A stretch of 64,000 nucleotides of DNA from an uncultured Gemmatimonadales bacterium (GCA_963835535.1 CAWIFL010000002.1:649011-713010); one strand, 5' to 3'. Counted from the first letter of the stretch, positions 49,015 through 64,000 are shown. The notes: generated from the letters alone by a model not told the origin. Translations and numbers: made by a program.

Positions 49015-49024
49015 TCCCGCGCCC

Positions 49025-50511
49025 TCATCGGCGGGCGCCGAAAAGGCGATGCCCGGCGAAGCGGGCACAGGCCCCCAGCAGCGTCTCGTCGTCGTGGCCG
49101 ACCAGGCGAGAGAGCGCGCGCGGGGGACCGGAGACCGCCTCGCGGCACTCAAGCACGCGGTCGCGTTCCGCGTCCCTGCGCTGCGCCAGGCGCCGCGTCA
49201 CGGCCGCCTTCGGCCCGGCGACGAGGCGCGCAACCAGTGCCGCGACCGATCGGACCTGCAAGCGCCGCCCAGCCCGGCGCGCCTCGCGGTGGCAGTATGC
49301 GCCCGCGTCCGCTCGCAGCCGGCCCCGGAGCGCCCGCGCGGCCTCGGGCGGCGGGGCAGCCGCCGCGGCACGCTCCTCCAACACGCGCCACACCCGCTTC
49401 GACGCCTGGCCGTCAATCGGCCCCAAGTAGGCCTCAACGAACGCCATCCGGTCACGCTCCTGTGCCTTGGTCGGCAGCCTCGGCTCAACGTCTCGCAGAC
49501 GGCGCCCCAGGTCCTCGGCGGAGACGGCGACCTCAATGCAACCGTCCAGTTCGTGGTAGGGGAGCAGGAGTCCCTTGACCCGCTGGACGGCGTCGGTCCA
49601 GAACGTGTACACGACCCGCTTGCCCGCAGCCATCGCCTCCGCGAGCGCCGTCGTCTGGAAACCCACGACGACGTCGCTGGAAACGATCAGCTCCCGCGTG
49701 TCTGCGTCCCCGGGGAGGAGCGTCACTCGCGGCACGCCGTCGATCCGCCGATGAATCCCCTCCAGCATCTCGGCGTTGTGCTGGGGATGGGGCTTCATGA
49801 GCACCTCCACCCGCCCTTCCGCAGCGACGTTGCGGAGAACTGCCTCGGTCTCGCGATACATCGCCTCCCAAGGCCGGTGCGCAGCGCCGAGCCCCCGCTC
49901 CTCGTCGTAGGCGTCGAGGTCGTAGCACAGGAAGAGAACGCGGTGCCCCCCCCCGCCGCGCGCCGCGGCCAGCGCTCCGGATGCCGATAGTAGTCGAAGC
50001 GCGGCTGCCCGGCCACCGCAACCTGCTCAGGCTCCGCACCGGCCGCCACCCAGAACACCTTCGACTTCTCGCAGCACGTGGTCATCCAGTCGCCCTTGAA
50101 GGGGAACCACCGGCGCATCTCCCCGGCGTGCTTGGCCAGCGAGGTGGCGGAGACACCCGTCTCCTTCTGGACGACCACGAAGGGCACTCCCAGCTCGCGG
50201 CAGGCGTCGATCACGTCGCGGATGTAGAAGAACGTATCCGATGGCGAGACGAACAGCTCGAAAGGGAAGACGCGATAGAGGTCCCGCAGGAGCTCAAAGG
50301 CCAGCGTCCGGTAGCGCGTGCGCGCTTCCGCGTATTCCGCCGCGTGGTAGCGAGCGAGGTCGCTGCCCCACACGTCCCGCGGGAAAAAGCGCTCCGCCAC
50401 CCGGGCGAAGTACATCGGTGACACAGTGCGGATCACGTGCCGCCCGTCGTCCGCGAGCTGCAGCTCCACGATGTCCTGCGCGAAGTGATGGTCCAGGATG
50501 AGAACGTTCAT
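49025..50511 (-). CDS. Capsule-polysaccharide-biosynthesis-type GT-B enzyme (KpsS/KpsC-like) 2; frameshift in a C9 run
   Basis: The N-terminal ORF starts at ATG 50511 (MNVLILDHHF...SPSDTFFYIRDVIDACRELGVPFVVVQKE). The C-terminal ORF 49025-49861 contains VLMKPHPQ. The frames join exactly at the C9 run 49946-49954 (...RRAAGGG | HRVLFLCYDLDAY...). Confidence 0.45.
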
Positions 50512-50518
50512 GGCCACC

Positions 50519-52039
50519 TCAAGAACGCGCGGGAGCGACCCGCAACCCCACGAGCGAACGCAACAGCGCGCGCTCCGGCGCGTCGGTCCCGATGGTGACA
50601 AAGAGCGCGGCTGCCAAGACCAACGCCCCGCCGCCGTACGCCGCCGCGAGCACCAACGTGTCCGCCGGGCGCACGATGCTGAGGCCGCCAACCACTGCTG
50701 CGCCGATCAGCGCTGGCGGGTACGCCCTCACAAGCACCTGCTGGGCCAGCTCCTTCACACCGATGTCTAGGGTCCGCAGGCACAGCCGGAGGTAGAGGAC
50801 CGACGAGACCGAGTTGCCGACCAGAGTCCCCCACAGCACGCCGGCGATGCCCAGCCACGGGGTTGCCACGATGCTGATCAGTAGGTTCAGCCCGGTCGTC
50901 CAAACGGCGATGCGCACGATGGCGGCGATGCGGTCCATCCCTACCATCAGGTTCCAGCCGACCTGGACCAGCCCGAAGTACAGCGTGTAGACCAGCATCA
51001 GGCGGACTAGGCCGGCGTCCACGGTGAACGCCGGGCCCAGCCAGAGCCGCAACAGGGGGCGTGCCAACACCATGATCACCAGCGAGATGGGCACGGAGAT
51101 CGCCACGGAGTACTTCGTCGCCGTCATAAACAGCTTGCGCAACTGCGGCCGGTCGCCGACGGCGTAGAGCGCCGACGCCCCGGGCATGACCACCGAGCTG
51201 ATGAAGCCGGTGGCGATCAGGGCGAGGGCATGGAACCGAGCAACGACATCGTAGTGGGTCAGCGCAGTCGTGGTCATCATCACGCCGAGGATGGCCTTGT
51301 CCATCTGATTGTATACCAGCCCGTTGATGCGCAACAGCAGCATCTGGCCGGAGACCCGGGCCATCCGCATCACTGCCGGTCCCGACACCTGGCGGGAAAG
51401 GCGCAGCGACGGCAGCAGACGTCGCGCGGCGACACTCGCCGCCAGCAAGTTCGCACCCGACAGCACGAGTACCACGACCCCGAGCATTACGGCCCCCGCT
51501 CCGTTCCGAAGTGCGACCACGGCCGCCACGGCGAAGATCGTGGAGCGGGCCGCGTCGAAGGCCGCCAGCAGGTCGTAACGTTGAAGCCCTTCGATTACGC
51601 CGAGGACAGCCATGGCAGGGAATTCGATGAGCGACTGCAGCGCCATGATCGTCAATAGCACTTCGGCCGTGCGGACGAGCTCGGGCGGGATGTTGAAGGT
51701 CCGCGTAAGGAAGGCGTACGCGAAGACGAGGACGAGGAGCGCCGCGACGACGGCGATAGCGGCGAAGGCCGCCAGCGCCGCACTGAAGAGCACGTTCACG
51801 CGGTCTGTCTCGCCTCGCGCGTGGTGCTCCGCGATTTGCTTGACGAGGGCCCCTTGGATGCCCAATGAGAACAGAGAAAGGTAGCCCGCCACCGAAAACG
51901 AGAGTACGAGGACCCAGACCCCGTAGAGCGCGGCGCCGAGAGACCGGATCAGGAAGGGCGTGAGGATCACGCTGACGGCCATGCGCCAGACGAAGCCGAG
52001 CATCGTGAGCACGGAATTGCTCGCCACCCGCCTCAGCAC
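50519..52039 (-). CDS. Wzx-type polysaccharide flippase (MOP superfamily) 3
   Basis: Intact 506-aa polytopic ORF, beginning MLRRVASNSVLTMLGFVWRMAVSVILTPFLIRSLGAALYGVW. Confidence 0.75.
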   Translation of the reverse strand: MLRRVASNSVLTMLGFVWRMAVSVILTPFLIRSLGAALYGVWVLVLSFSVAGYLSLFSLGIQGALVKQIAEHHARGETDRVNVLFSAALAAFAAIAVVAALLVLVFAYAFLTRTFNIPPELVRTAEVLLTIMALQSLIEFPAMAVLGVIEGLQRYDLLAAFDAARSTIFAVAAVVALRNGAGAVMLGVVVLVLSGANLLAASVAARRLLPSLRLSRQVSGPAVMRMARVSGQMLLLRINGLVYNQMDKAILGVMMTTTALTHYDVVARFHALALIATGFISSVVMPGASALYAVGDRPQLRKLFMTATKYSVAISVPISLVIMVLARPLLRLWLGPAFTVDAGLVRLMLVYTLYFGLVQVGWNLMVGMDRIAAIVRIAVWTTGLNLLISIVATPWLGIAGVLWGTLVGNSVSSVLYLRLCLRTLDIGVKELAQQVLVRAYPPALIGAAVVGGLSIVRPADTLVLAAAYGGGALVLAAALFVTIGTDAPERALLRSLVGLRVAPARS

Positions 52040-53991: not shown

Positions 53992-55049
53992 TCACGCCTC
54001 CCGTACGAGGGGCCAGGACAGAGGCGTACCCCGCGCGATGTCGCACGCCGCCGCCTTGCCGATGACCCCGTCCAAAAACCGGGGGGCCAATCCGTACCCC
54101 GGGCGGATCGATCGAACGTTCCTCGCCGTGAACCGCTGCCCCGCTGCCACATCCTCGACGACGTACAGGGACCGTCGGAGCACGACACTCCCTTCCTCAG
54201 CGACTCCCGGTCCGAACGTCGCACGCCCCAGCATCCCCTCCGCCCGGCGCACCTCGCGCACCAGCTCCCCGAGCTCCGCGGGCTCAAGCGAGAAATGGCT
54301 GTCCACACCCCCGTCCGAGCGCCGCAGCGTCAGGTGCTTCTCCACCAGGCAGGCGCCCAGCGCGACCGCAACCACCGGCGCTAGGTGTCCGCCGCTGTGG
54401 TCGGACAGCCCAACGAGACAGCCCGTCTCGGCGGCGAGCACGGGGATGCTGCGCAGGTTCATCGAGTCGTCGGGAGCGGGATAACTGCTCGTGCACTTGA
54501 GGATCACCACGTCAGCGACCCCTGTTTCGCGCAATACGTCGACCGCGTGCACGATCTCGTCGCGCGTCGCCATCCCCGTCGAGAGGATGACGGGCTTTCG
54601 CGTCTTCGCGACCACCCGCAGGAGTGCGTCGTCCACCAGCTCGAACGACGCGATCTTGTACGCCGGAGCCTCCAGGGCCTCCAGAAACTCCACCGCCGTG
54701 GCGTCGAACGGCGTTGAGAAGATCTCCATGCCGAGGCCGCGGGCCTCAGCGAAAAGCTCCGCGTGCCACTCCCACGGCGTGTGCGCCTCGCCATACAGAT
54801 CGTAGAGCGTCCGCCCCCCCACGGCCCGCCCCCGGGGACGACGAAGTCTGGCTTGGCGCAATCTATCGTAAGAGTGTCCGGCGTATACGTCTGCAGCTTG
54901 ATCGCGTCCACTCCCGCAGCGGCCGCGGCGCGGACGAGCTCAAGCGCGCGCTCGCGGCTTCCGTTGTGGTTGCCGGAAAGCTCGGCAACCAGGAAGGCTG
55001 GTCGCCCGTGGCCCACCGTCCGCTGGCCTATGCTAACCGTGTGTTCCAT
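53992..55049 (-). CDS. pseI: Pseudaminic acid synthase-like nonulosonate synthase (NeuB family); frameshift in a C7 run
   Basis: FLVAELSGNHNGS, DAIKLQTYTPDTLT | TLYDLYGEAHTPWEWH, YKIASFE, PVILSTGMAT, LKCTSSYPAP, GLSDHS and a C-terminal SAF domain. The two ORFs join at the C7 run 54813-54819. Confidence 0.8.
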
Positions 55050-55083
55050 ATCATGCCCGTCGTCCCCAAGAGAGCGAGAACAC

Positions 55084-57111
55084 CTAGTTCAATCGCTTGA
55101 ATGCCGCGTGACATACCGGTCCTTTCAGAAGGCTGATCGCATTCCGACCATTTTCGCACTCTGCGATCAACCCGAATACCGGATCAAGCGCCTCAAAGTA
55201 CCGATCTACAATCGAGCCGGTGTGTTCGACGCAGACATACACAGAGTCCGCCGCCAGGAATCCCTTCTTGAGCATCTCTTGCGTGAGCAAGGTCTTGTAA
55301 GCGAGTGCATTGGCGCTTTGGATAGTAAAGCCGGCCAGGGCGGGCAAGCCCCAGTGACTGATCCTGAGCCCATGCGTGTCCGCCAATTGTTGCCACCGCT
55401 TTCTGACCTGCAGCCCCATCTTGGTGATGGTCTCCCAGGACTTCGTTCGCTCCATCACATCCAGGGTCGCCAGGGCGGCAGTCGGGCCGATGCGCTCGGT
55501 CCAGAACGTGCTGCTGATGAAGGTCTCTTGGGCGGCTTCCATGACTTCACGTTTGCCAATGCACGCTGTGATGGCGTAGCCGTTGCCAAGTGCCTTGCCG
55601 AACATGGCCATATCGGGCTGTACACCGTGTTTCTTGTGCAGGCCACCGAAGGTCTCGCGGAAACCTGACGTGCATTCGTCAAAGATCAGGACAATGCCTT
55701 TGTCCGTGGCCAGCTTGCGGATCTTTTCAAGGAAGCCATCTTCCGGCGCAACGTTGCGGGACACCTCCATCATGATCACGCCGATGTCGTGCTCACGCAT
55801 CAGGCCTTCAAGTTCTGGGAAACTGTTGTAGCGGAACGGCAGCACACTGCCACGGAGGCTCCGAGGAACACCCTTAGGTTGCAGGCCCGGCAACAGATGG
55901 CCGGCGAGGTTCTCTTCGTCCCCCAGGTTGGCGGCAAGATACCAGTCATGCCAGCCGTGGTAGCCGCAAATGGCCACCTTGTCTTTTCCGGAAGCCGCAC
56001 GTGCGATCCGGATGGCGATCGCATTGGCCTCGCCGCCCGAGCGTGCCAATCTCACCATGTCGGCCCAAGGATGCATGGCGACCAAACGTTCGGCCAAATA
56101 GACCTCCTCCGGGCAGTTGAGGGTGGACATGTTGCCGGCGGCAACGGTGCGCTGCACAGCTTCGTCCACTTCCGGATGGCCGTAACCGAGGATATTCGTG
56201 CCGATGCCCATGATCGACATGTCAGTATATTCGCGCCCATCCATATCCCAGACCTTGCAGCCTTTGGCTTTGCTGAAGTAGGCGGGCCATTGTTCTGGCA
56301 AGAACATTTCGGCACGCTTTGATAGCAGCATGTTGCCACCCGGAATCACCCTTTTGGCGCGCTTCCAGAGTTTCTGTCCGGTACTCATCATCGCTCCTTC
56401 GTTGCGACTCAAGCGTTGATTGGCGGCAAAAAGGTCGGGCCTAGCCTTGCGTAATCGCATGACTTCAAGCCAAGAGAAGTCTGTGCGCAGCGCGAAACTC
56501 TCGTAGACGGCCTTGATGACCGCAAGGTCCTCCGGCTCATCGACCGTCCAGCGTTCGCCGGAACAGTCCTCCGTGTGGGAGATGTTGAGGATGCGGAATT
56601 GGCCGGATTCCCGGATATAGGTGGTGACATGCTCGCGTTCGTGCGGCTGGCCTGCCCTTTGCCACGCGGTTCGCAGGGCAGCGAATGTGAATGCCTCGGT
56701 ATCGAGACCATCCGGATAGGTGGGCGGGTTGGTATTGCAGGCGTAATCGGCGCCGCCAGCCTTCAACGGGGCAATGACGCTATCGACAATCTGAGGGTCT
56801 ATTAGCGGACAGTCGCCTGTGATGCGTACCACGATATCCGGCTCACGGACTGCGGCAGCCTGGTAATAGCGATCCAGCACATCGTCTTCGCTGCCCCGAA
56901 AGACGCTGTAGCCAAGCCTGCGAACGTGATCAACCAGCGGCTGGTTGCGAGGGTCTTGTGTGGTGGCGACCACGATCTGGTCGATCTGTTGCGATCTGGC
57001 CAGTCGTCTGAGCAACAACTCAATCATCGGCACCCCACCAATGGGTTGCATGACCTTGCTGGGGAAACGAGTTGACCCCATGCGAGCTTGGACGATGGCA
57101 AGGACTTTCAC
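55084..57111 (-). CDS. Fusion protein: SpsF/CMP-type cytidylyltransferase (N-terminal ~240 aa) plus class-III PLP aminotransferase, glutamate-1-semialdehyde aminomutase-like (C-terminal ~430 aa)
   Basis: The N-terminal domain reads MKVLAIVQARMGSTRFPSKVM...RITGDCPLID. The C-terminal domain reads ARSGGEANAIAIRIARA, DECTSGFR and MAMFGKALGNGY (PLP lysine). Intact 675-aa ORF in the lower-GC block. Confidence 0.75.
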   Translation of the reverse strand: MKVLAIVQARMGSTRFPSKVMQPIGGVPMIELLLRRLARSQQIDQIVVATTQDPRNQPLVDHVRRLGYSVFRGSEDDVLDRYYQAAAVREPDIVVRITGDCPLIDPQIVDSVIAPLKAGGADYACNTNPPTYPDGLDTEAFTFAALRTAWQRAGQPHEREHVTTYIRESGQFRILNISHTEDCSGERWTVDEPEDLAVIKAVYESFALRTDFSWLEVMRLRKARPDLFAANQRLSRNEGAMMSTGQKLWKRAKRVIPGGNMLLSKRAEMFLPEQWPAYFSKAKGCKVWDMDGREYTDMSIMGIGTNILGYGHPEVDEAVQRTVAAGNMSTLNCPEEVYLAERLVAMHPWADMVRLARSGGEANAIAIRIARAASGKDKVAICGYHGWHDWYLAANLGDEENLAGHLLPGLQPKGVPRSLRGSVLPFRYNSFPELEGLMREHDIGVIMMEVSRNVAPEDGFLEKIRKLATDKGIVLIFDECTSGFRETFGGLHKKHGVQPDMAMFGKALGNGYAITACIGKREVMEAAQETFISSTFWTERIGPTAALATLDVMERTKSWETITKMGLQVRKRWQQLADTHGLRISHWGLPALAGFTIQSANALAYKTLLTQEMLKKGFLAADSVYVCVEHTGSIVDRYFEALDPVFGLIAECENGRNAISLLKGPVCHAAFKRLN

Positions 57112-57205
57112 GCCAGCAACTGTGGGGTCCCGCCCGCCGATACCCTGGGTTGCACGGTTGAGTCTCCCATCCTCAACGAGTCTTGAGGTCGGACATTGGA
57201 TCGCA

Positions 57206-57889
57206 TCACCCAGCTGCAGGGTCCGCGCTCAGGGCACCGATGACACTCATGAAATGCCCAAGGTCGGGAATGCAATACCGCGCCTCATAGCCCGGCTTCG
57301 CCTCAGCGTTCCTGTGCGCCCCCGTGAGCACGCGGACCGTATTCATCCGGACTTCGCGCAGGCCAACAAAGTCCTTCGCCGGGTCATCTCCAACGTAGGT
57401 CATGTCCGCCCAGTCGCATCTCTCGGCCTCGCGAATGCGCTCAAAGCAATAGGTTGAAGGTTTAGCATACTGGATGCCATAACGATGAGTAATGAAGATC
57501 CGGCGGAACAGGGGCGCGATTGCCAGAGCTTCAATCTTGTGTTGCTGCACAATCTTGTGGCCATCAGTGACAACATAGAGTGGGTGGCCTTTCAGCTTTG
57601 GCAGCAAGTCCCTTGCATCTGGATAGAGCGACAGGTGTGGCGTATGATGCCGATACGCCCGCACGCATTTGTGCACCAAGCTTCTGCTATAACGACCACG
57701 CGATTCCAGCCAACGATCAAAGATCGCGCCGCGACCTTCACGATCTAGCACATCCAGCATAAAATGAAACGACGCGTCGAGGTCCCAGCCGAACAGGGCA
57801 CGACCGAAAGCCGCGACAGATCTCAGGCCGCTTTCCACGTATGCGCGTTCATCATAAAGCGTATCGTCAAGATCAAAAATCAGAACCAT
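57206..57889 (-). CDS. HAD-superfamily hydrolase/phosphatase
   Basis: ATG 57889 (MVLIFDLDDTLYDE, the DxDxT motif I). VVTDGH (motif II-like) and YVGDDPAKDF (motif IV-like). Confidence 0.7.
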   Translation of the reverse strand: MVLIFDLDDTLYDERAYVESGLRSVAAFGRALFGWDLDASFHFMLDVLDREGRGAIFDRWLESRGRYSRSLVHKCVRAYRHHTPHLSLYPDARDLLPKLKGHPLYVVTDGHKIVQQHKIEALAIAPLFRRIFITHRYGIQYAKPSTYCFERIREAERCDWADMTYVGDDPAKDFVGLREVRMNTVRVLTGAHRNAEAKPGYEARYCIPDLGHFMSVIGALSADPAAG

Positions 57890-59792
57890 AGATATGAATA
57901 TCGTCGGGGACGCGGACTTGACGCACCTCGCCAGAAATGCGGTCAAAGGGATAATCACCCAAATCTGCCCCACTGGTTTCAAGCAGGCTCCAGTAGAACA
58001 CGTCAAGCCCCGCCGCAATAGACGCCGTGGATGCACCACCAAAGCGCGTGTTACATTCGATGACGTGAATACCCTTGTGTAAATCCACCATCGCCTGCAC
58101 AACCACGGGGCCACGCACCTTCAGGGCCTGCACCACCACTCCAATCGCCGCTTCAATATCCGTATCGCGGAAGGTCGTTGTGACCTGTGACTCACCAGAC
58201 AGAACGAGGTCACGAGTGCGCAGCACGAGGGCCTTCACCTGATGGGAACGGGTTGCCCAAGCATCAATACTGATTTCGATACCTTCAAGGAACGGCTGAT
58301 AGATCGCGTCCTCCAACCTCGCGCCGTGCGCAAGTGCGGCCGCTCGGTCAAGATTGAGGCCAATTGACCGGGCACCGGCCCCATAACGCTCCTTCGCCAC
58401 ATATGGCCCCTTACCCACTTCATCAGGGTGCAGGCCCGCCGGGACGAAGGGCAACCCTCTAGCCAGGCCAAACTGCGCAAAGGCGAGCTTGTCACGGCAT
58501 GTCTCGACGCTTTCAACAGGCGAGACAACAACCTCAACGCCTTCTGCGGCAAACCGTTCTCGATTCCGGGACCAGAAAAGTAGCTCGTCATCCCGTGTTG
58601 GAATAACAACATGGATCTTGCGTCGCTTGCATCCGGCTACAAGCACCTCAATGGCAGCATCATCGAATCTTGGCGTGCGCCAGAACCCGTCAGCCACGTA
58701 GCGCGCTAGTGCGTTGTGATCGAGATCGCCGGCGATAACCTGGCTGCTAGGACTGACCCTCCGTGCGGCCTTCTGTACCGCCCGGACAAGCGGGATCTTC
58801 CTAGATGCACAGGTTACCAAGACGTTACCCAACGGCGCCGCCGCCACCTCACTGGCAGTAAGTCTTCCCATTTCATGAGCAATGACTTCCTGAATCCCAC
58901 TCTCAAGATCGTATTCAGGCACCCAGCCGACCGCCTTGCGGTATGCGGTCATGTCAGCCTGTGACGCTTCGAAGGGAATGTCAGAATTCTCTTCCCGCAC
59001 CTTCATGTTGGGGAAATGTGTGCGTAGGATGTCAACCACGTCCTGGACCGTGCGAGCACGTCCCGTACCAAGATTGAGAATACCTGCGACTGCATCGGCG
59101 TCCGCCAACCGAATCAAGCCTTCCGCCGAGTCCTTGGCGTACACGTAGTCAAACATGCCTTCTGGTCGGTAGACCGTAATTGACTCACCGGCGAGCAGCG
59201 CCCGGACCCAGCGCGAAATCACATCCCGTGAGTTGCGCCCGTAGCCACGATAAATTCGCGCACAGGCCGTCGTAAATGACTCGGCGCAAAACCTATCCAG
59301 AAAACGCAATTCAATTTCATGCGCGAACTTGGCCATACCAGTCAGATTGCGCGGCAGGACAGGGGCCGATTCCCTCAACGAAACAGGTGCGGTTTGCGGC
59401 CCATCAAACTGATACTGCGCTTGATCATAGATGAGGTAACTGGACGCGAAAACGACCCGCTTCAGAGACGGCACGCCCTTGGCGATGGTCATCAAGTGAT
59501 GGCTGAGCCGCACATTGTGCCAGTAGTTCTCTTCCCAGAAGCCATATGTCTCGGTGGAGCGTTCAAAGGTGGCGGCCAAATGGATGAACACATCGGGGGC
59601 AAAGGCCTCTAATTCACCCTTGGTTATCAGATTAAGGTCACCCTGGCGATAGCGTACCTCCTTAGCGAAGCCGGCGGGACGCGGCTTCAAGTCACCCACA
59701 AGAACCTTGGCGCCACGCGCGAGCAGCCGTGGGATCATTTCCAACCCGATTACCCCAGCACCACCGCTAACGAAGACTCGTTTGTTTTCCAT
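57873..59792 (-). CDS. Fusion protein: atypical extended-SDR domain (N-terminal ~310 aa) plus ATP-grasp ligase domain (C-terminal ~320 aa)
   Basis: The N-terminal domain has RVFVSGGAGVIG and FASSYLIY, but the YxxxK position reads PRNLTGMAK. The C-terminal domain has VLVTCASRKIPLV..., IPTRDDELLF, CRDKLAFAQF, YVAKERYGAGARSIG, QPFLEGIEISIDA and VIECNTRFGG, an ATP-grasp pattern. Confidence 0.7.
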   Translation of the reverse strand: MENKRVFVSGGAGVIGLEMIPRLLARGAKVLVGDLKPRPAGFAKEVRYRQGDLNLITKGELEAFAPDVFIHLAATFERSTETYGFWEENYWHNVRLSHHLMTIAKGVPSLKRVVFASSYLIYDQAQYQFDGPQTAPVSLRESAPVLPRNLTGMAKFAHEIELRFLDRFCAESFTTACARIYRGYGRNSRDVISRWVRALLAGESITVYRPEGMFDYVYAKDSAEGLIRLADADAVAGILNLGTGRARTVQDVVDILRTHFPNMKVREENSDIPFEASQADMTAYRKAVGWVPEYDLESGIQEVIAHEMGRLTASEVAAAPLGNVLVTCASRKIPLVRAVQKAARRVSPSSQVIAGDLDHNALARYVADGFWRTPRFDDAAIEVLVAGCKRRKIHVVIPTRDDELLFWSRNRERFAAEGVEVVVSPVESVETCRDKLAFAQFGLARGLPFVPAGLHPDEVGKGPYVAKERYGAGARSIGLNLDRAAALAHGARLEDAIYQPFLEGIEISIDAWATRSHQVKALVLRTRDLVLSGESQVTTTFRDTDIEAAIGVVVQALKVRGPVVVQAMVDLHKGIHVIECNTRFGGASTASIAAGLDVFYWSLLETSGADLGDYPFDRISGEVRQVRVPDDIHIYGSDF

Positions 59793-59800
59793 CTCTCCAT

Positions 59801-60352
59801 TTACCGTTCGTATGAACTGATGCAGCCATGCACGATCGAATCCACAGGCTGGCCATCGATTATCACGTGATGCCTTAGCGTTCCTTCTCGGCGAAAGCCC
59901 GCAGCCTCCAGCACAGCGATATGATGAGTGCGCGTCGCATAGGTTTCCGTGAAGATGCGCTCTAGTCCCAAGTCTTCAAAAGCAAGGGTCTTCATCAGCT
60001 TGAGGAATGGAGCAAAGTACCGCGTATAGTCACCTTTCCTGCCGGCCAGAAGCGGGTTCAACAGGAATGAGACTTCGGCTCGACGATGCTCCCAAGCGAT
60101 ATGTACAAGCGCGCCATATCCGATAGCAACCTCATTCTCCAGATAGATAAGAAGAATATTCCTTGGCCGCGGCACGTCCATTTCCGGCCAGACATAGGTA
60201 TCGTAGTACTCGCGTTGCTGATCAGGGGTAATGACCTCTGACTGCCGTAGGACACTCATCTGCGCGTTTCGCCACTGCCGAATGCTCTCGATATCGCTCG
60301 GCTGCACAGCCGCGAGAGCAAGCGCGCCATCTTGCAGCTTCCGCCTCGGCAT
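59801..60352 (-). CDS. GNAT N-acetyltransferase, PseH-like
   Basis: ATG 60352. LAAVQPSDIESIRQWRNAQMSVLRQSEVITPDQQREYY resembles the PseH/FlmH N-terminal signature. A GNAT core follows (IGYGALVHIAWEHRRAEVSFLL). Confidence 0.6.
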   Translation of the reverse strand: MPRRKLQDGALALAAVQPSDIESIRQWRNAQMSVLRQSEVITPDQQREYYDTYVWPEMDVPRPRNILLIYLENEVAIGYGALVHIAWEHRRAEVSFLLNPLLAGRKGDYTRYFAPFLKLMKTLAFEDLGLERIFTETYATRTHHIAVLEAAGFRREGTLRHHVIIDGQPVDSIVHGCISSYER

Positions 60353-60632
60353 ACATCTGTAGCTTCTTAGAGATTGCCCGTCCACATTGCTCCTCCAGCA
60401 CTTGGCACGTCCCGTCACGTGTCACTATACCTGCCACGTGCTCGCGCGGCGGATACAATGCGCGTCAGCGCCCCACAGCTGGCCGCCGCGGCGTGGCATC
60501 CTGACACGTCACCGAACTGTCGTATCGGCATGCGAGCTGAACTGCGCCCGCCCAAACGGCGCCCCATGGTCCGGTACCCGCCGACCTTTGCTGCGGCCAA
60601 GCTGCTTGTGGTCTGCGACCTAGCTGCTGCCC

Positions 60633-61823
60633 TCAGTGCCCGGCTGGCACTGGGGCTACGCGGCGCATCACGACCGTCAGCGCGTCGCACACGCGCGCGA
60701 CATCGGTGTCCTTCATCGCGTGGTACATCGGAATGCTGATCTCGTGCTCGTACCACCATTCGGCGTGCGGAAATTGCTGCGGGCCGTACCGCGCGAGATA
60801 GAATGGCTGCTTGTGGATCGGGATGTAGTGGACCTGCCCGCCAACACCCAGCCCCGCTAGATCGGACAGGACCTGCGCGCGGCGCTCGACGAGGACCGGG
60901 AACAGGTGATAGGCGTGCGTGCGGCCGGTCGGCTCCGCCTGCAATCCGATCCCCCGCACGCCCGCGAACGCTTCCCGGTACCGTGCCGCGATCGCACGCC
61001 GACGAGCCAGCCCAGCCTCAAAGCGCAGCAACTGGCTGGTACCGAGCGCCGCGAGGATGTCCGGCATCCGGTAATTGAAGCCGAGACGCTGCATCTCGTA
61101 CCACCAGGGACCCTCATGCCACTGCAGCCGCTGCGAGTCGCGCGTGATCCCGTGCGTGCGCAGCATCCGTGCCCGCTCAGCAAGATCCGCCCGGCTGGTC
61201 ATCACCGCCCCGCCCTCGCCGGTCGTGATGTGCTTGACCGGATGGAAGCTGAGCGTGGCGAACGCCGACGTGCTGGCGTCACCCACCTTCCTTACGCGGC
61301 CCTGTGCGTCCGTCCATGTGGCGCCGGGAGCATGGCAGGCATCCTCGATCAGTTCCACGCCGTAGCGCGAGCACAGCTCGCCGACCCGCACTAGGTCGCA
61401 CGGAAGGCCCGCGTAATGCACCACCACTACCGCCCGGAGGCGTCCCGGGCCCCGGTAGTCAGCGAGCAGCTCCTCGAGCGCTTGCGCCGACAGAAGACCT
61501 GTGTCCGGTTCCACGTCCACGAACGCGACGTCCGCGCCGCAGTATAGCGCGGCGTTGGCCGAAGCCACAAAGGTGATCGGTGGAACGACGACGACATCAC
61601 CGGGACCGATGCCGAGGGCCAGCATTCCGACGTGCAAGGCAGCAGTGCCCGAGCTCACGGCCACAGCCTCCTCAGCGCCGAACCGCTGGCACAGTGCCGT
61701 CTCGAATTGCCCAACGGCCGGGCCCTGCGTCAGCCAGTCGCCCCGCAGCACCCGAACCACCGCTTCGATGTCATCGTCGTCAATATGGTGATGCCCGTAT
61801 GGGATCACCGGCCCGTCAGTCAT
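60633..61823 (-). CDS. pseC: DegT/DnrJ/EryC1-family PLP aminotransferase, PseC-like (UDP-4-keto-6-deoxy-hexose transaminase)
   Basis: Intact 396-aa ORF. IPYGHHHIDDDDIEAVVRVLRGDWLTQGP, SSGTAALH, the SFHPVKHITTGEGG lysine motif and LRTHGI. Confidence 0.8.
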   Translation of the reverse strand: MTDGPVIPYGHHHIDDDDIEAVVRVLRGDWLTQGPAVGQFETALCQRFGAEEAVAVSSGTAALHVGMLALGIGPGDVVVVPPITFVASANAALYCGADVAFVDVEPDTGLLSAQALEELLADYRGPGRLRAVVVVHYAGLPCDLVRVGELCSRYGVELIEDACHAPGATWTDAQGRVRKVGDASTSAFATLSFHPVKHITTGEGGAVMTSRADLAERARMLRTHGITRDSQRLQWHEGPWWYEMQRLGFNYRMPDILAALGTSQLLRFEAGLARRRAIAARYREAFAGVRGIGLQAEPTGRTHAYHLFPVLVERRAQVLSDLAGLGVGGQVHYIPIHKQPFYLARYGPQQFPHAEWWYEHEISIPMYHAMKDTDVARVCDALTVVMRRVAPVPAGH

Positions 61824-62821
61824 GCGTCAATTGGCTCCGTCTCCGCTGGATCGAGGCCGAGCTCTACCAGCATGGCGCGCATCCGCTCTACGCTGAGCCA
61901 CTCCGTGTTCCGGTCGGAGGCGTACTCGAAGCGGTCCGGTACTCGCGGTGCGTCTTCATAGTTGCTCCCGTCCCAGTAATCCAGCTGGGGACAAACAACA
62001 AAGTGGTGCGGAAACTCGACGGTGCGAGGCGCGTCATCTGCCGGGATCATCAGCTCGTGTAGTTTCTCGCCCGGGCGAATGCCGACTTCGAGGATGTCGC
62101 AACCGGGAGCGACTGCCTCCACGAGGTCGAGGATCTTCATGGACGGGATCTTGGGCACGAACAGCTCACCACCGTGCATCGTGCGCGCCGCCATCAGGAC
62201 GAAGTCCACGCCGTGATCGAGGGTGATCCAGAATCGTGTCATGCGACGGTCGGTCACCGGGATTACCCCCGTCTGGCGCTGCTTGAGGAAGTAGGGGATC
62301 ACGCTGCCGCGGCTTCCCATGACGTTCCCGTATCGCACCACCGAAAAGCGGGTATTACGAGAGCCCACGTAGCTCTGCGCCGTGACGAACAACTTGTCCG
62401 AAACGAGCTTGCTCGCTCCGTACAGATTGATGGGCATCGCCGCCTTGTCAGTCGAGAGCGCCACGACACGCTCCACCCCGCAGTCAATGGCGGCGTCGAT
62501 CACGTTCATGGCGCCGTGCACGTTGGTCTTGATGCACTCGAACGGATTGTACTCCGCGATCGGCACGTGTTTCAATGCCGCCGCGTGGATCACTGTGTCG
62601 ATCCCGTGCATTGCGCGCATCAACCGGTCACGGTCACGGACGTTGCCGATGAAGAAGCGCAGCCGGGGGTCCGAGAACTCGCCAGCCATCTCGTACTGCT
62701 TGAGTTCGTCGCGGCTGTAAACCACGATGCGCTCAGGATCGTGCTCGCCCAGCATCCGGCGCACGAACGCCCTGCCGAACGACCCGGTACCGCCGGTGAC
62801 GAGGATCTGGTTCATGCTCAT
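61820..62821 (-). CDS. pseB: UDP-N-acetylglucosamine 4,6-dehydratase (inverting), PseB/FlaA1-like
   Basis: ILVTGGTGSFGRAF, HAAALKHVP, LSTDKAAMPINLYGASKL and VRYGNVMGSRGSVIP. 4-nt overlap with pseC. Confidence 0.85.
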   Translation of the reverse strand: MSMNQILVTGGTGSFGRAFVRRMLGEHDPERIVVYSRDELKQYEMAGEFSDPRLRFFIGNVRDRDRLMRAMHGIDTVIHAAALKHVPIAEYNPFECIKTNVHGAMNVIDAAIDCGVERVVALSTDKAAMPINLYGASKLVSDKLFVTAQSYVGSRNTRFSVVRYGNVMGSRGSVIPYFLKQRQTGVIPVTDRRMTRFWITLDHGVDFVLMAARTMHGGELFVPKIPSMKILDLVEAVAPGCDILEVGIRPGEKLHELMIPADDAPRTVEFPHHFVVCPQLDYWDGSNYEDAPRVPDRFEYASDRNTEWLSVERMRAMLVELGLDPAETEPIDA

Positions 62822-62831
62822 GAAGACCGGA

Positions 62832-64000
62832 CTAACCGTGAAGCGGGATCGCGTCGCGCGAGCGCTGCCCGTCGACTGTGCCGGAGCCCACCGCCTCCCC
62901 GCGCGCCCGGTCAAGATCAGGGAATAGCTTCCTCAACGATGCGGCCACATCACTATCATTGCCATCGCGCAGTGCATGTTCCCACGCCTCGACCCGGCTG
63001 CTCATCGTCGTGCCGCCGCAGCCGCCGTCGGTGAATACGAGACGCACTTTCGGGATCGCGGTCGGGCGGGTCTGCTCGTCGGGCGAGAGCAGCTGTTCAT
63101 GGAGCCGCTCTCCAGGGCGGAGACCGGTGTACACGATCCTGCCTCCGTCCCTATTGTCTAACCCAGCCAAGTGCAACAAGTTCTTCGCGAGGTCCTCGAT
63201 TCGCACCGGCTCACCCATCTCAAGCATCGCAATGCTCCCGCGCACCTCCGGCAAGAGCGAGGCTTGCAGGATCAACTGCACGGCCTCCTGGATCGTCATG
63301 AAGTACCGGGTCGCCTCGGGGTCCGTGACGGTCAGCGGCCTGCCGCTCTCCAGCTGCCTCTTGAAGATGGGGAGCACGCTTCCGTTGCTGCCAAGCACGT
63401 TGCCGAACCGGACGGCCGCGTACGTCGTGCCCTGGTGCCGTTGCCTGCAGCTCCAACACGACGAGTTCGGCGAGGCGCTTCGTCGCACCCATCACGCTCA
63501 CGGGCTGAACGGCCTTGTCGGTGCTCACGAGAACGAACTTGTCCGTGCCGTGGCGGCCCGCAGCGTCCGCCACCCGCCACGTGCCGATCACGTTGTTGCG
63601 GATAGCCTCGCGCTGGTTGCACTCCATCATCGGCACGTGCTTGTAGGCGGCGGCGTGATAGACTCGCTCCGGCCGGTGCTCGCGGAACACCCTCTCCACT
63701 GCCGCCGGATCAACGATGTCGCCGATCACCGGGACAAGGGTGAGATCGCGGGTGCTTCTCGCGCAACTCCATCCCGATGTAGAACAGATCCGTTTCGGCC
63801 TGGTCAAACAGCACCAGCGTCCCGGGGCCGTGAAGGGCAACCTGACGCGCCAGCTCCGAGCCAATGGAGCCCGCAGCGCCAGTGATCAGGACCCGCCGGC
63901 CCCGCAGGTCCGCAGCCAACTCGGGCAGAGTGAGCTGCACCGGCTCCCGCCCGAGCAGATCCTCGATTCGGACATCGCGGAGCTGATTGATACGGACGTC
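62832..64000 (-). CDS. CapD/WbpM/PglF-type polysaccharide biosynthesis dehydratase, C-terminal catalytic part; 5' end beyond the window; two frameshifts as assembled
   Basis: VLITGAAGSIGSEL, HAAAYKHVPMME, STDKAVQPVSVMGATKR and VRFGNVLGSNGSVLP are spread over three frames. Switches lie near 63748 and 63445. Confidence 0.7.

What the first reader, a model, noticed from the sequence alone, without database searches (positions are those of the whole stretch)
57873..59792. SDR::ATP-grasp fusion in which the SDR catalytic Tyr position reads Thr
- The N-terminal extended-SDR domain keeps the GxxGxxG NAD site (SGGAGVIG) and the Ser region (FASSY).
- The P-x-x-x-Y-G-x-x-K catalytic motif appears as PRNLTGMAK. 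The domain may therefore be a nucleotide-sugar binding module rather than an oxidoreductase.
- It is fused to a complete-looking ATP-grasp ligase.
- This looks like a recognition-module-plus-ligase architecture for N-acylating a nucleotide-linked amino sugar.
Basis: partly seen in the sequence, partly recalled or inferred. Interest (0 to 1): 0.65.

Follow-up and report, generated by a model that had tools for sequence, protein, structure and literature searches.

The report
Tyr-less SDR fused to sugar-acylating ligase
This gene fuses a sugar-nucleotide-type dehydrogenase domain that has lost its catalytic tyrosine to an intact ATP-dependent ligase, and it belongs to a widespread, uncharacterised four-gene cassette that stands where the usual acetyltransferase and UDP-hydrolase genes sit in operons making the bacterial sialic-acid mimic pseudaminic acid.

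Summary
ORF 57873-59792 (-) encodes 639 aa: an extended-SDR domain, a short flexible linker, then an ATP-grasp domain. GxxGxxG, Asp34, HLAA, Ser118 and Lys155 are kept. The catalytic Tyr position is Thr151.

No Tyr was seen at this position in any relative examined. It is T/I/V in 120 close relatives and T/C/I/V wherever the motif was found among 150 distant ones. The fusion is real: about 640-aa homologues are abundant and occur in many phyla.

The gene sits in a conserved cassette, GNAT - SDR* - ATP-grasp - HAD, inside pseB-pseC-...-pseI-pseF operons that lack PseH and PseG. All pairwise fusions of GNAT, SDR* and ATP-grasp occur, as do split forms.

Stand-alone relatives of the ATP-grasp, usually with the HAD, occupy the acetyltransferase's place in two settings: PseH-less Firmicute Pse islands and PglD-less bacillosamine-type loci. 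The latter is the logic of Neisseria PglB2, which makes a 4-glyceramido sugar.

Most likely the ligase half N-acylates the C4 amine of the UDP-amino sugar (N7 of Pse). The role of the SDR* half is unresolved. It is the most conserved part of the operon, also exists alone, and lacks two canonical UDP-clamp arginines. It is not simply a PseG substitute.

The parts
57873..59792 (-). Whole ORF, 639 aa: SDR*::ATP-grasp fusion (stop codon included)
58854..59792 (-). SDR* domain (aa 1-313): extended-SDR fold, NAD motifs kept, catalytic Tyr absent
   Evidence: Pfam PF01370. Foldseek matches to GalE, TunA, MoeE5 and GME with target-normalised TM-score 0.7-0.84. Model confidence (pLDDT) mostly 80-97.
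59745..59765 (-). GxxGxxG dinucleotide-binding motif (G10-G16, GGAGVIG)
   Evidence: G10, G13 and G16 are invariant in 120 relatives
59436..59444 (-). S117-S118-Y119. S118 aligns with the SDR catalytic Ser/Thr. Y119 is a family-specific invariant Tyr one residue later.
59328..59354 (-). PRNLTGMAK: the YxxxK site with Thr151 (codon 59340-59342) in place of Tyr; Lys155 kept
58827..58853 (-). Inter-domain linker (aa 314-322), low model confidence
   Evidence: pLDDT below 50 at residues 314-319; pTM 0.60
57876..58826 (-). ATP-grasp ligase domain (aa 323-639): PylC-like N-domain plus ATP-grasp core
   Evidence: Pfam. 2pn1 matches with E 1.7e-13 by sequence and target-normalised TM-score 0.82 by fold. 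It aligns end to end with stand-alone ligases.
58044..58058 (-). E579-C-N581-T-R583: ATP/Mg-binding E-x-N-x-R motif of ATP-grasp enzymes
   Evidence: E, N and R are invariant in alignments A1 and A4
59801..60385 (-). GNAT acetyltransferase, the obligatory upstream partner. It is only weakly PseH-like (29 bits against a cutoff of 93).
   Evidence: immediately upstream in 81/81 loci
57206..57889 (-). HAD-IA (CTE7-type) phosphatase, the downstream partner. It overlaps the 3' end of the fusion by 17 nt.
   Evidence: immediately downstream in 78/81 loci
60633..61823 (-). PseC aminotransferase (TIGR03588, 466.6 bits, above cutoff)
61820..62914 (-). PseB inverting 4,6-dehydratase (TIGR03589, 510.8 bits, above cutoff)
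55084..57111 (-). Cytidylyltransferase (CTP_transf_3) fused to a class-III aminotransferase
53992..55049 (-). PseI pseudaminic acid synthase (TIGR03586, 370.9 bits), reading frame broken beside a G-run

Best explanation
The ORF is one polypeptide of a conserved four-part cassette, GNAT - SDR* - ATP-grasp - HAD. This cassette sits between pseC/pseF and pseI in a widespread variant of the CMP-pseudaminic-acid operon that lacks canonical PseH and PseG.

The ATP-grasp half is taken to be a carboxylate-amine ligase.
- It uses ATP to activate a carboxylic acid as an acyl phosphate.
- It transfers that acyl group to the C4 amine of UDP-4-amino-4,6-dideoxy-beta-L-AltNAc, the PseC product. This nitrogen becomes N7 of Pse.
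- It therefore does the job that acetyl-CoA-dependent PseH does in the standard pathway.
- The acid is probably phosphorylated. 3-Phosphoglycerate is the leading candidate, giving a 7-N-glyceroyl group as in Neisseria GATDH and Tannerella Pse5Am7Gra.
- The neighbouring HAD phosphatase would then remove the phosphate.
- The SAM methyltransferases common in related operons may methylate the acyl group.
- The GNAT either caps or acetylates the new side chain, or provides a parallel N-acetyl route.

The SDR* half is a dinucleotide-binding extended-SDR domain that cannot use the canonical Tyr chemistry. It most likely binds the sugar intermediate or a cofactor and works physically with both the GNAT and the ligase. 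Whether it only holds substrate or has a non-canonical catalytic role is unknown.

Shown here: domain anatomy, Tyr loss, cassette conservation, the fusion permutations, and substitution for PseH/PglD by genomic context.

Inferred: the ligation itself, the identity of the acid, the order of steps, and the role of SDR*.
For: Anatomy.

Cassette:
- In 81 loci from at least ten phyla, the GNAT is immediately upstream in 81/81 and the HAD immediately downstream in 78/81.
- PseI is present in 68-71 loci, PseC in 62-64 and PseB in 55-59.
- Compact operons with overlapping genes, pseB-pseC-pseF-(MT)-GNAT-fusion-HAD-pseI, leave no room for PseG or PseH.
- PseG was never common among the 225 unassigned neighbouring ORFs scanned. 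Only locus L002 has a divergent PseG-like domain.

Functional linkage by fusion and by split operons:
- GNAT::SDR* fusions.
- GNAT::ATP-grasp fusions.
- Split operons.

Ligase role:
- In Geobacillus, Aneurinibacillus and Peptococcaceae flagellin islands, a stand-alone ATP-grasp of this family plus HAD accompanies PseB, PseC, a bona fide PseG (282-295 bits), PseI and PseF. No GNAT/PseH is present.
- Published analysis independently notes that Geobacillus islands lack PseH (PMC5109656).
- In 80 metagenome loci, more distant stand-alone relatives sit beside DegT aminotransferases (32 loci), PglC-like phosphoglycosyltransferases (31) and PglF-like dehydratases. A HAD is next door in 36 of the 62 loci with room for one. 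One locus has a phosphoglycosyltransferase::ATP-grasp fusion.
- This reproduces the architecture of Neisseria PglB2 (ATP-grasp/phosphoglycosyltransferase), which makes 4-glyceramido GATDH instead of diNAcBac (PMC11130364 and PMC6959607).

Precedent for ligating a phosphorylated partner and then removing the phosphate with a HAD: C. jejuni Cj1438C and Cj1435 (PMC11800397).
Against: - Only one free amine exists on the PseC product, yet both a GNAT and a ligase are always present. Their division of labour is unexplained.
- The glyceroyl assignment rests on analogy and on the HAD partner.
- The window's own operon lacks the two methyltransferases common elsewhere.
- The ligase works without SDR* in other lineages, so SDR* is not needed for substrate recognition in general.
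- SDR* is more conserved than the ligase, exists alone, and by alignment lacks the equivalents of GalE Arg231 and Arg292. These points fit an independent activity better than a passive UDP-sugar holder.
- The step that removes UDP in the PseG-less operons is not accounted for.
- The operon's pseI is frameshifted in this window, so the pathway may be inactive here or the assembly may be in error.
Confidence: 0.55

Rival explanations
1. The SDR* domain is the functional replacement of PseG. Using tightly bound NAD+ and a relocated base (for example the invariant Tyr119), or a non-redox mechanism, it releases UDP from the acylated sugar. The fusion would then be a bifunctional acyl-ligase/nucleotidase.
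For: - PseG is missing from 80 of 81 cassette-type loci, including operons with no spare coding room.
- SDR* occurs only in Pse contexts. It is absent from all 84 bacillosamine-type loci examined, where the sugar stays nucleotide-linked.
- It is the most conserved part of the operon.
- The NAD motifs, Ser118, Lys155 and the family-specific Tyr119 are invariant or nearly so.
Against: - In Nitrospiraceae locus L179, a bona fide PseG (210.5 bits, cutoff 153.55) lies directly upstream of a stand-alone SDR* in the same operon.
- Rhizomicrobium locus L002 has the full cassette plus a PseG-like domain.
- A GNAT::ATP-grasp locus (L177) has neither SDR* nor PseG within 9 kb.
- PseG absence tracks GNAT presence better than SDR* presence.
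- I know of no SDR-fold nucleotide-sugar hydrolase.
Confidence: 0.12
2. The SDR* domain is a non-catalytic adaptor. It binds NAD structurally, dimerises like other SDRs, and scaffolds the GNAT and the ligase into one complex. It may or may not hold the UDP-sugar.
For: - The Tyr position varies among T, C, I and V, so it has no chemical role.
- The domain is found fused to either partner, GNAT or ATP-grasp.
- The SDR fold normally binds NDP-sugars.
Against: - It shows the highest sequence conservation in the operon, with about 59 invariant residues in 310, including many charged residues around the active-site region.
- Free-standing forms exist.
- The ligase functions without it in Firmicute islands.
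- By alignment the canonical UDP-clamp arginines are missing.
- The linker is flexible and the model predicts no confident domain interface.
Confidence: 0.25
3. The ligase adds an amino acid, possibly phosphoserine that the HAD then dephosphorylates, and the GNAT acetylates its alpha-amine. The product would be an N-acetyl-aminoacyl group on N7, analogous to the N-acetyl-alanyl legionaminic acid of Vibrio.
For: - The strict co-occurrence of GNAT and ligase (81/81) is explained if they act in sequence.
- The GNAT belongs to the RimJ/RimL-type Pfam families PF13302/PF13420 rather than being a true PseH. By my own knowledge these enzymes acetylate alpha-amines.
- In rhizobial and roseobacter loci a formyltransferase takes the GNAT's place.
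- Leg5Ac7AcAla is a known natural product (PMC7371886).
Against: - Most stand-alone ligase loci have no capping enzyme.
- Firmicute Pse islands have the ligase and HAD without a GNAT.
- The only characterised product linked to an ATP-grasp of this architecture is glyceramido.
Confidence: 0.2

Closest known systems
Neisseria PglB2 (ATP-grasp / phosphoglycosyltransferase) of the pilin O-glycosylation pathway
   Same: - An ATP-grasp domain takes the place of the acetyltransferase that normally N-acylates a UDP-4-amino-4,6-dideoxy-HexNAc.
- Stand-alone relatives of the ligase studied here sit beside the same aminotransferase, dehydratase and phosphoglycosyltransferase genes. One is fused to a phosphoglycosyltransferase.
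- HAD hydrolase and formyltransferase genes are also reported in N. oralis pgl loci (PMC6959607).
   Different: - PglB2 works on the D-gluco (bacillosamine) sugar, which stays UDP-linked, and it is fused to a transferase rather than to an SDR.
- Direct sequence similarity to PglB2 was not tested here.
- As far as the papers read show, PglB2's role rests on genetics and mass spectrometry, not on an in vitro ligase assay.
Canonical PseH / PseG steps of CMP-pseudaminic acid biosynthesis
   Same: The cassette holds the same operon position, between pseC/pseF and pseI, and receives the same upstream intermediate. PseB, PseC and PseI in the window all score above NCBIfam equivalog cutoffs.
   Different: - No PseG is present.
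- The GNAT scores 29 bits against PseH's cutoff of 93.
- Acylation is ATP-dependent rather than acetyl-CoA-dependent.
- Two extra activities are present, SDR* and HAD.
C. jejuni Cj1438 C-terminal amidoligase plus Cj1435 HAD phosphatase (capsule GlcA amidation)
   Same: An ATP-dependent amide-forming enzyme is paired with a HAD phosphatase that removes a phosphate from the ligated partner during sugar decoration (PMC11800397).
   Different: - The polarity is reversed: there the sugar supplies the carboxylate and the partner the amine.
- The HAD has no specific similarity to the one here.
- That reaction acts on the growing polymer, not on a nucleotide sugar.
Extended SDR nucleotide-sugar epimerases and dehydratases (GalE, TunA, MoeE5, UXS, GME)
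   Same: The fold (target-normalised TM-score 0.7-0.84), GxxGxxG, Asp after beta-2, the HLAA motif, the catalytic Ser and the Lys are all shared.
   Different: - The catalytic Tyr is replaced by T/C/I/V.
- The GalE Arg231 and Arg292 equivalents are absent.
- There are family-specific invariant motifs: ASSY, PRN before the helix, and TFERSxE after HLAA.
Tyr-less or atypical SDRs: CapE/FnlA-type enzymes with MxxxK, and NmrA/HSCARG-type sensors (from my own knowledge, not tested here)
   Same: These are precedents showing that an SDR fold can lose the Tyr and either remain catalytic through other residues or become a nucleotide-binding regulator.
   Different: No sequence relationship to those groups was tested. 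Neither group is fused to an ATP-grasp.
PDB 2pn1, 'carbamoylphosphate synthase large subunit (split gene)' from Exiguobacterium (structural genomics)
   Same: It is the closest solved structure to the ligase half: E 1.7e-13, 21% identity, target-normalised TM-score 0.82.
   Different: It is a stand-alone protein of unknown function, so it gives no information on substrate.

Membership tests
Extended SDR (NAD-dependent epimerase/dehydratase, PF01370) | Pfam score above the gathering threshold, and the Rossmann plus C-terminal substrate-domain fold | tested here: met
   65.7 bits against a cutoff of 20.9. Foldseek probability 1.00 to GalE, TunA, MoeE5 and GME.
Extended SDR (NAD-dependent epimerase/dehydratase, PF01370) | GxxGxxG dinucleotide motif and an acidic residue after beta-2 | tested here: met
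   GGAGVIG and D34. The three Gly and D34 are invariant in 120 relatives.
Extended SDR (NAD-dependent epimerase/dehydratase, PF01370) | Catalytic Ser/Thr and Lys of the S-Y-K triad | tested here: met
   S118 and K155 align with them. K155 is invariant and S118 is S in 119 of 120.
Extended SDR (NAD-dependent epimerase/dehydratase, PF01370) | Catalytic Tyr of YxxxK | tested here: not met
   Thr151 aligns with the Tyr in 4 of 5 alignments. The position is T/I/V in 120 relatives, and T/C/I/V wherever the motif was found among 150 distant relatives.
Extended SDR (NAD-dependent epimerase/dehydratase, PF01370) | Arginines clamping the NDP diphosphate (GalE R231 in RDY, R292 in RxGD) | tested here: not met
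   By alignment to 4zrm the equivalents are F214 and the S-D-I-P stretch. This is alignment-based only, and other conserved Arg residues (R179, R182, R194, R197, R209) might compensate.
ATP-grasp carboxylate-amine ligases | ATP-grasp Pfam domains above threshold, with a pre-ATP-grasp N-domain | tested here: met
   PF21360 58.3 bits, PF15632 47.6 bits, PF02655 32.6 bits, all above their cutoffs.
ATP-grasp carboxylate-amine ligases | Conserved ATP/Mg-binding residues (Lys in the central domain, E-x-N motif) | tested here: met
   K467, E579, N581 and R583 are invariant in alignment A1, and their equivalents are invariant in A4. They align to 2pn1.
ATP-grasp carboxylate-amine ligases | ATP-dependent amide-bond formation | not testable with these tools
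   This needs an enzyme assay.
PglB2-type amino-sugar N-acyl (glyceroyl) ligase | The ATP-grasp stands in for the N-acetyltransferase next to a 4,6-dehydratase and a C4 aminotransferase | tested here: met
   True for the family. PseH-less Firmicute islands. PglD-less loci. In the window the gene follows PseB and PseC.
PglB2-type amino-sugar N-acyl (glyceroyl) ligase | Sequence homology to Neisseria PglB2's C-terminal domain | not tested
No Neisseria protein appeared among the 120 best hits of the stand-alone ligase.
PglB2-type amino-sugar N-acyl (glyceroyl) ligase | The product carries a glyceramido group | not testable with these tools
   This needs MS or NMR of the glycan or CMP-sugar.
Carbamoyl-phosphate synthase large subunit (the name many databases give this protein) | Match to the CPSase equivalog models at their cutoffs | tested here: not met
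   The best match is a 'CPS-like' model, PRK12767.1-4, at 151 bits against a cutoff of 390. No CarB model reached E 0.01. The database name is a misnomer.
Canonical Pse pathway (PseH, PseG present) | PseH equivalog (TIGR03585) and PseG equivalog (TIGR03590) in the operon | tested here: not met
   The GNAT scores 29 bits against a cutoff of 93.1. No PseG or GT28 domain was found among the window ORFs scanned between 24 and 64 kb. PseG was never common among the related loci.

The most novel reading that the evidence does not exclude
The GNAT - SDR* - ATP-grasp - HAD cassette is a self-sufficient third route from the PseC product to the PseI substrate. It would replace both PseH and PseG. The missing UDP-release step would be carried out inside the cassette, by the Tyr-less, NAD-binding SDR* with a relocated catalytic residue, or jointly with the GNAT, whose presence anticorrelates with PseG. 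SDR* would then define a new catalytic class of extended SDR.
Probability: 0.15. Interest if true: 0.8.

Novelty: new variant of a known kind. Interest (0 to 1): 0.6.

Why it matters
- Pseudaminic acids decorate flagella, pili, capsules and S-layers. Their N-acyl groups set antigenicity, phage recognition and motility.
- How acyl groups other than acetyl or acetamidino get onto N7 is largely unknown. For Tannerella's 7-N-glyceroyl Pse the gene 'remains elusive' (PMC6120980).
- This analysis points to a concrete, widespread enzyme set, ATP-grasp plus HAD, that takes the acetyltransferase's place in both pseudaminic-acid and bacillosamine-type pathways. That makes the question directly testable.
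- It also defines a large Tyr-less extended-SDR subfamily with the signature ASSY ... PRN[LIVM][T/C/I/V]GxxK. This subfamily is strongly conserved, always travels with the ligase, and has no assigned function.
- It shows that many Pse operons across many phyla lack PseG and PseH. Pathway predictions based on the six canonical genes would therefore miss or mis-call them.
- No paper describing this fusion turned up in the open-access library that was searched.

Tried and rejected
- **SDR* as a simple PseG substitute.** This was attractive until L179 showed a bona fide PseG directly upstream of SDR* and L002 showed a PseG-like domain beside the full cassette.
- **HAD as the UDP/sugar-1-phosphate hydrolase.** Rejected as a general explanation, because the HAD accompanies the ligase in loci where the sugar stays nucleotide-linked and in islands that also have PseG.
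- **The class-III aminotransferase and aldo/keto reductase of the window as core partners.** Rejected: they occur in only 4 and about 15 of 81 loci.
- **Specific homology of the HAD to C. jejuni Cj1435.** None beyond motif I.
- **Viral contigs.** No relative found.
- **Literature.** Searches for ATP-grasp together with pseudaminic, nonulosonic or legionaminic found nothing on this protein. Iyer et al. 2009 and Chamot-Rooke et al. 2007 were not held. The Tannerella paper's supplement had no annotation of the intervening ORFs.
- **Plasmids.** Only stand-alone ligases turned up, no fusions.
- **Organism of the window.** It could not be named: the cluster look-up carried no name and only a 5-kb Logan contig was readable.


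Full report
**1. What is in the sequence**

- The minus-strand ORF 57873..59792 encodes 639 aa.
- Pfam places an NAD-dependent epimerase/dehydratase domain at residues 6-242. A PylC-like N-domain lies at 324-422, and ATP-grasp domains cover 459-609, all above threshold.
- An AlphaFold2 model built on 24 homologues has mean pLDDT 85.4. The only weak stretches are residues 314-319 (the linker) and 473-477. The pTM is 0.60, which fits two well-folded domains with no confidently fixed mutual orientation.
- Foldseek against the PDB returns the ATP-grasp 2pn1 first (target-normalised TM-score 0.82). After that come extended SDRs: GalE, TunA, MoeE5, GDP-mannose 3,5-epimerase and 4,6-dehydratases (0.7-0.84).

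**2. The tyrosine is really gone**

- Pairwise HMMER alignments to solved SDRs put Thr151 on the catalytic Tyr and Lys155 on the Lys in four cases: T. maritima GalE, TunA, B. cereus UDP-GlcNAc 4-epimerase and human UXS. Only the MoeE5 alignment is locally shifted.
- Ser118 aligns with the catalytic Ser/Thr.
- In 120 homologues (57-72% identity) the position is T108/I8/V4, inside an otherwise frozen PRNL-x-GMAK motif.
- Among 150 representatives down to about 33% identity, the motif, wherever it was found, reads PRN[LIVM][T/C/I/V]GxxK and ASSY is retained.
- Tolerance of Ile and Val means the side chain has no acid/base role.
- The glycines of GxxGxxG, D34, HLAA and K155 are invariant, and S118 is S in 119 of 120. 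So are several family-specific residues (Y119, R148, N149, H92), and E77, R78, S79, E159 and E161 nearly so.
- The domain is therefore under strong selection and probably still binds a dinucleotide.
- By alignment to 4zrm, the two arginines that clamp the UDP diphosphate in GalE-type enzymes correspond to F214 and an S-D-I-P stretch. Canonical NDP binding should not be assumed.
- I call this subfamily SDR*.

**3. The fusion is real and common, but it is one of several arrangements**

- The same protein is called on an independent assembly.
- All 120 best hits among 5.8 billion proteins are 632-651 aa with both domains.
- The 80 GTDB species loci span Acidobacteriota, Cyanobacteria, Alpha-/Beta-/Gammaproteobacteria, Bacteroidota (many Hymenobacter), CPR bacteria, Pelosinus, Pelagibacteraceae, Legionella, Gemmatimonadota and Ignavibacteria.
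- SDR* also occurs in other forms:
  - free-standing, about 310 aa;
  - fused behind a GNAT, about 500 aa;
  - in the split operon NeuB - ATP-grasp - GNAT - SDR*;
  - as GNAT::SDR* - ATP-grasp - HAD.
- GNAT::ATP-grasp fusions also exist.
- All three pairwise fusions therefore occur. This is strong evidence that the three proteins work together.

**4. Genomic context**

- In the window the gene lies in one minus-strand operon:
  - PseB and PseC (both above NCBIfam equivalog cutoffs);
  - a GNAT that is only weakly PseH-like;
  - the fusion;
  - a HAD-IA phosphatase overlapping its stop codon;
  - a cytidylyltransferase::class-III aminotransferase;
  - PseI;
  - an aldo/keto reductase;
  - a methylase;
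  - a flippase-like protein.
- This operon sits within a large polysaccharide locus.
- I clustered all ORFs of 81 related loci. The results:
  - GNAT immediately upstream in 81/81;
  - HAD immediately downstream in 78/81;
  - PseI in 68-71, PseC in 62-64, PseB in 55-59;
  - a Methyltransf_23 enzyme in 56 and a TylF-like enzyme in 40;
  - one of two cytidylyltransferase types in most.
- Operons such as L060, L016, L058, L009 and L010 are gap-free, with overlapping stop and start codons. They contain no PseG or PseH.
- NCBIfam scans of 225 unassigned neighbouring ORFs never found PseG as a recurrent family. Only Rhizomicrobium L002 carries a divergent PseG-like domain, fused to PseF.
- By tblastn, the SDR* half is the most conserved piece of the operon. 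Median identities are 65% for SDR*, 57% for PseB, 54% for PseI, 46% for the ATP-grasp half, and 42-44% for GNAT, HAD and PseC.

**5. What the ligase half does**

Two independent comparative lines converge.

(a) Stand-alone ligases in Firmicute Pse islands.
- Stand-alone ligases 43-50% identical to this domain occur with the HAD in flagellin glycosylation islands of Geobacillus thermoleovorans, Aneurinibacillus migulanus and a Peptococcaceae bacterium.
- These islands also hold PseB, PseC, PseF, PseI and a bona fide PseG (282-295 bits against a cutoff of 153.55).
- They hold no GNAT/PseH and no SDR*.
- A published survey had already noted that Geobacillus islands lack PseH (PMC5109656).

(b) More distant stand-alone relatives in bacillosamine-type loci.
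- These are about 30% identical and align end to end. They lie in amino-sugar polysaccharide loci.
- On rhizobial and roseobacter replicons they sit next to a HAD and often a formyltransferase.
- In 80 metagenome loci the HAD is adjacent in 36 of the 62 with room for it.
- The recurrent neighbours there are a DegT aminotransferase (32 loci), a PglC-like phosphoglycosyltransferase (31) and PglF/WbpM dehydratases. SDR*, the cassette GNAT and PseI were never found.
- One locus fuses a WecA-like phosphoglycosyltransferase to the ligase.
- This is a diNAcBac-type pathway without PglD. It is the architecture of Neisseria PglB2, the 'ATP grasp/phosphoglycosyl-transferase' responsible for 4-glyceramido GATDH instead of diNAcBac (PMC11130364, PMC6959607).

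In both settings the ATP-grasp (+HAD) stands where the C4-amine acetyltransferase should be.

- The most economical reading is an ATP-dependent N-acyl ligase acting on the UDP-4-amino sugar.
- The constant HAD partner suggests a phosphorylated acyl donor that is dephosphorylated after ligation. C. jejuni Cj1438C and Cj1435 show this logic for another sugar amide (PMC11800397), although that HAD is not specifically related.
- 3-Phosphoglycerate giving a glyceroyl group fits GATDH.
- It also fits the 7-N-glyceroyl group of Tannerella Pse5Am7Gra, whose gene 'remains elusive' (PMC6120980).
- The one or two methyltransferases beside the cassette would fit methylation of such a side chain.
- All of this is inference. 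No assay exists.

**6. What the SDR* half does is not resolved**

- The recognition-module idea fits several facts: the loss of the Tyr, the SDR fold's usual ligand, and the alternative fusion to either acylating enzyme.
- It sits uneasily with others. SDR* is the best-conserved protein segment in the operon. It exists on its own. The ligase does without it in Firmicutes. The linker is flexible. The canonical UDP-clamp arginines are missing.
- I tested the more exciting idea that SDR* replaces PseG. SDR* is confined to Pse contexts, and PseG is missing from 80 of 81 cassette loci.
- However, in Nitrospiraceae L179 a genuine PseG (210.5 bits) directly precedes a stand-alone SDR* (ASSY, PRNLCGAAK) in the operon PseG - SDR* - MT - ATP-grasp - HAD - PseI. 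L002 also has both.
- The cleaner anticorrelation is between the GNAT and PseG:
  - GNAT present and PseG absent in 82 of 83 loci;
  - GNAT absent and PseG present in 4 of 4 loci.
- That comparison rests on few independent GNAT-less loci and on windows of only ±8-10 kb.
- Who removes UDP in the PseG-less operons therefore remains an open and interesting question.

**7. Comparison with what is known, and novelty**

- The protein is a member of the extended-SDR fold family and of the ATP-grasp superfamily.
- It fails the defining Tyr test of catalytic SDRs.
- It is not a carbamoyl-phosphate synthase, despite that frequent database label (151 bits against a cutoff of 390).
- It works most like PglB2's ATP-grasp domain.
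- The family is abundant in databases but, in the literature searched, unnamed and uncharacterised.
- I rate it a new variant of a known kind: an amino-sugar N-acyl ligase embedded in a new cassette together with a new Tyr-less SDR subfamily.
- Interest is moderate to high for glycobiologists, for three reasons:
  - it makes the origin of non-acetyl N7 acyl groups testable;
  - it exposes a large class of PseG/PseH-less Pse operons;
  - it leaves a strongly conserved domain without a function.

**8. Caveats**

- The window's pseI is broken by a single-base frameshift next to a G7 run. A second gene, a WbpM-like dehydratase, is also split.
- Either the assembly has homopolymer errors or the locus is decaying.
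- The target ORF itself is intact and identical in an independent assembly.
- The cassette region has 57% G+C against about 70% for the rest of the window, which suggests horizontal acquisition.

Noticed in passing
window 53992-55049 (-), break near 54815-54830: The pseI reading frame is split in two by a single-base frameshift beside a run of seven G. The N-terminal 60-odd residues are in one frame and the rest, which scores 370.9 bits to TIGR03586, is in another. This is either a homopolymer sequencing error or a pseudogene.
   Followed up: partly
window 62832-63864 (-): A WbpM/CapD/PglF-like nucleotide-sugar dehydratase is split into two overlapping ORFs in different frames (62832-63488 and 63220-63864). 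I recognised it by eye from the HAAAYKHVP and RFGNVLGS motifs. This is a second apparent frameshift in the same locus.
   Followed up: no
window 55084-57111 (-) and 53025-~53925 (-): A cytidylyltransferase is fused to a class-III (glutamate-1-semialdehyde-aminomutase-like) aminotransferase, and an aldo/keto reductase lies nearby. In related loci the aminotransferase is found in only 4 of 81 and the reductase in about 15 of 81, sometimes with a classical SDR in place of the aminotransferase. This may add an extra amino group to the nonulosonate.
   Followed up: partly
window 54000-60000: G+C falls to 0.57-0.63 here, against about 0.70 elsewhere in the window. This covers the cassette and the cytidylyltransferase and suggests the Pse sub-cluster was acquired horizontally.
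   Followed up: no
window 47320-49152 (-) and 49025-50691 (-): Large ORFs without any Pfam hit lie between the flippase and the glycosyltransferases. The one at 49795-50691 looks like a GT-B/sialyltransferase-like protein and overlaps another long ORF in a different frame. These are candidates for the pseudaminic-acid transferase.
   Followed up: no
L093 7643-10542: A 345-kb marine metagenome contig carries an ATP-grasp followed by a GNAT::SDR* fusion, with no NeuB within 9 kb. Its gene content (GIY-YIG, zf-CCHC, dsRBD, ankyrin, many ORFans) looks like a giant virus.
   Followed up: no
L146 4164-6398: A 744-aa ORF fuses a WecA/MraY-type polyprenyl-phosphate sugar-phosphate transferase to the stand-alone-type ATP-grasp. 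This is an architectural analogue of Neisseria PglB2 built from a different transferase class.
   Followed up: partly
L176 16835-19037: In the Aneurinibacillus migulanus flagellin island, a DUF2172/DUF4910 protein and a formyltransferase lie beside the ATP-grasp/HAD/PseG/PseI genes. By my own recollection this is the same domain family as C. jejuni Cj1295, which is linked to di-O-methylglyceroyl Pse.
   Followed up: no
L002 13803-15566: Rhizomicrobium palustre encodes a PseF fused to a divergent PseG-like domain (TIGR03590, 44 bits, full-length match). It lies next to flagellin genes and the full cassette.
   Followed up: partly
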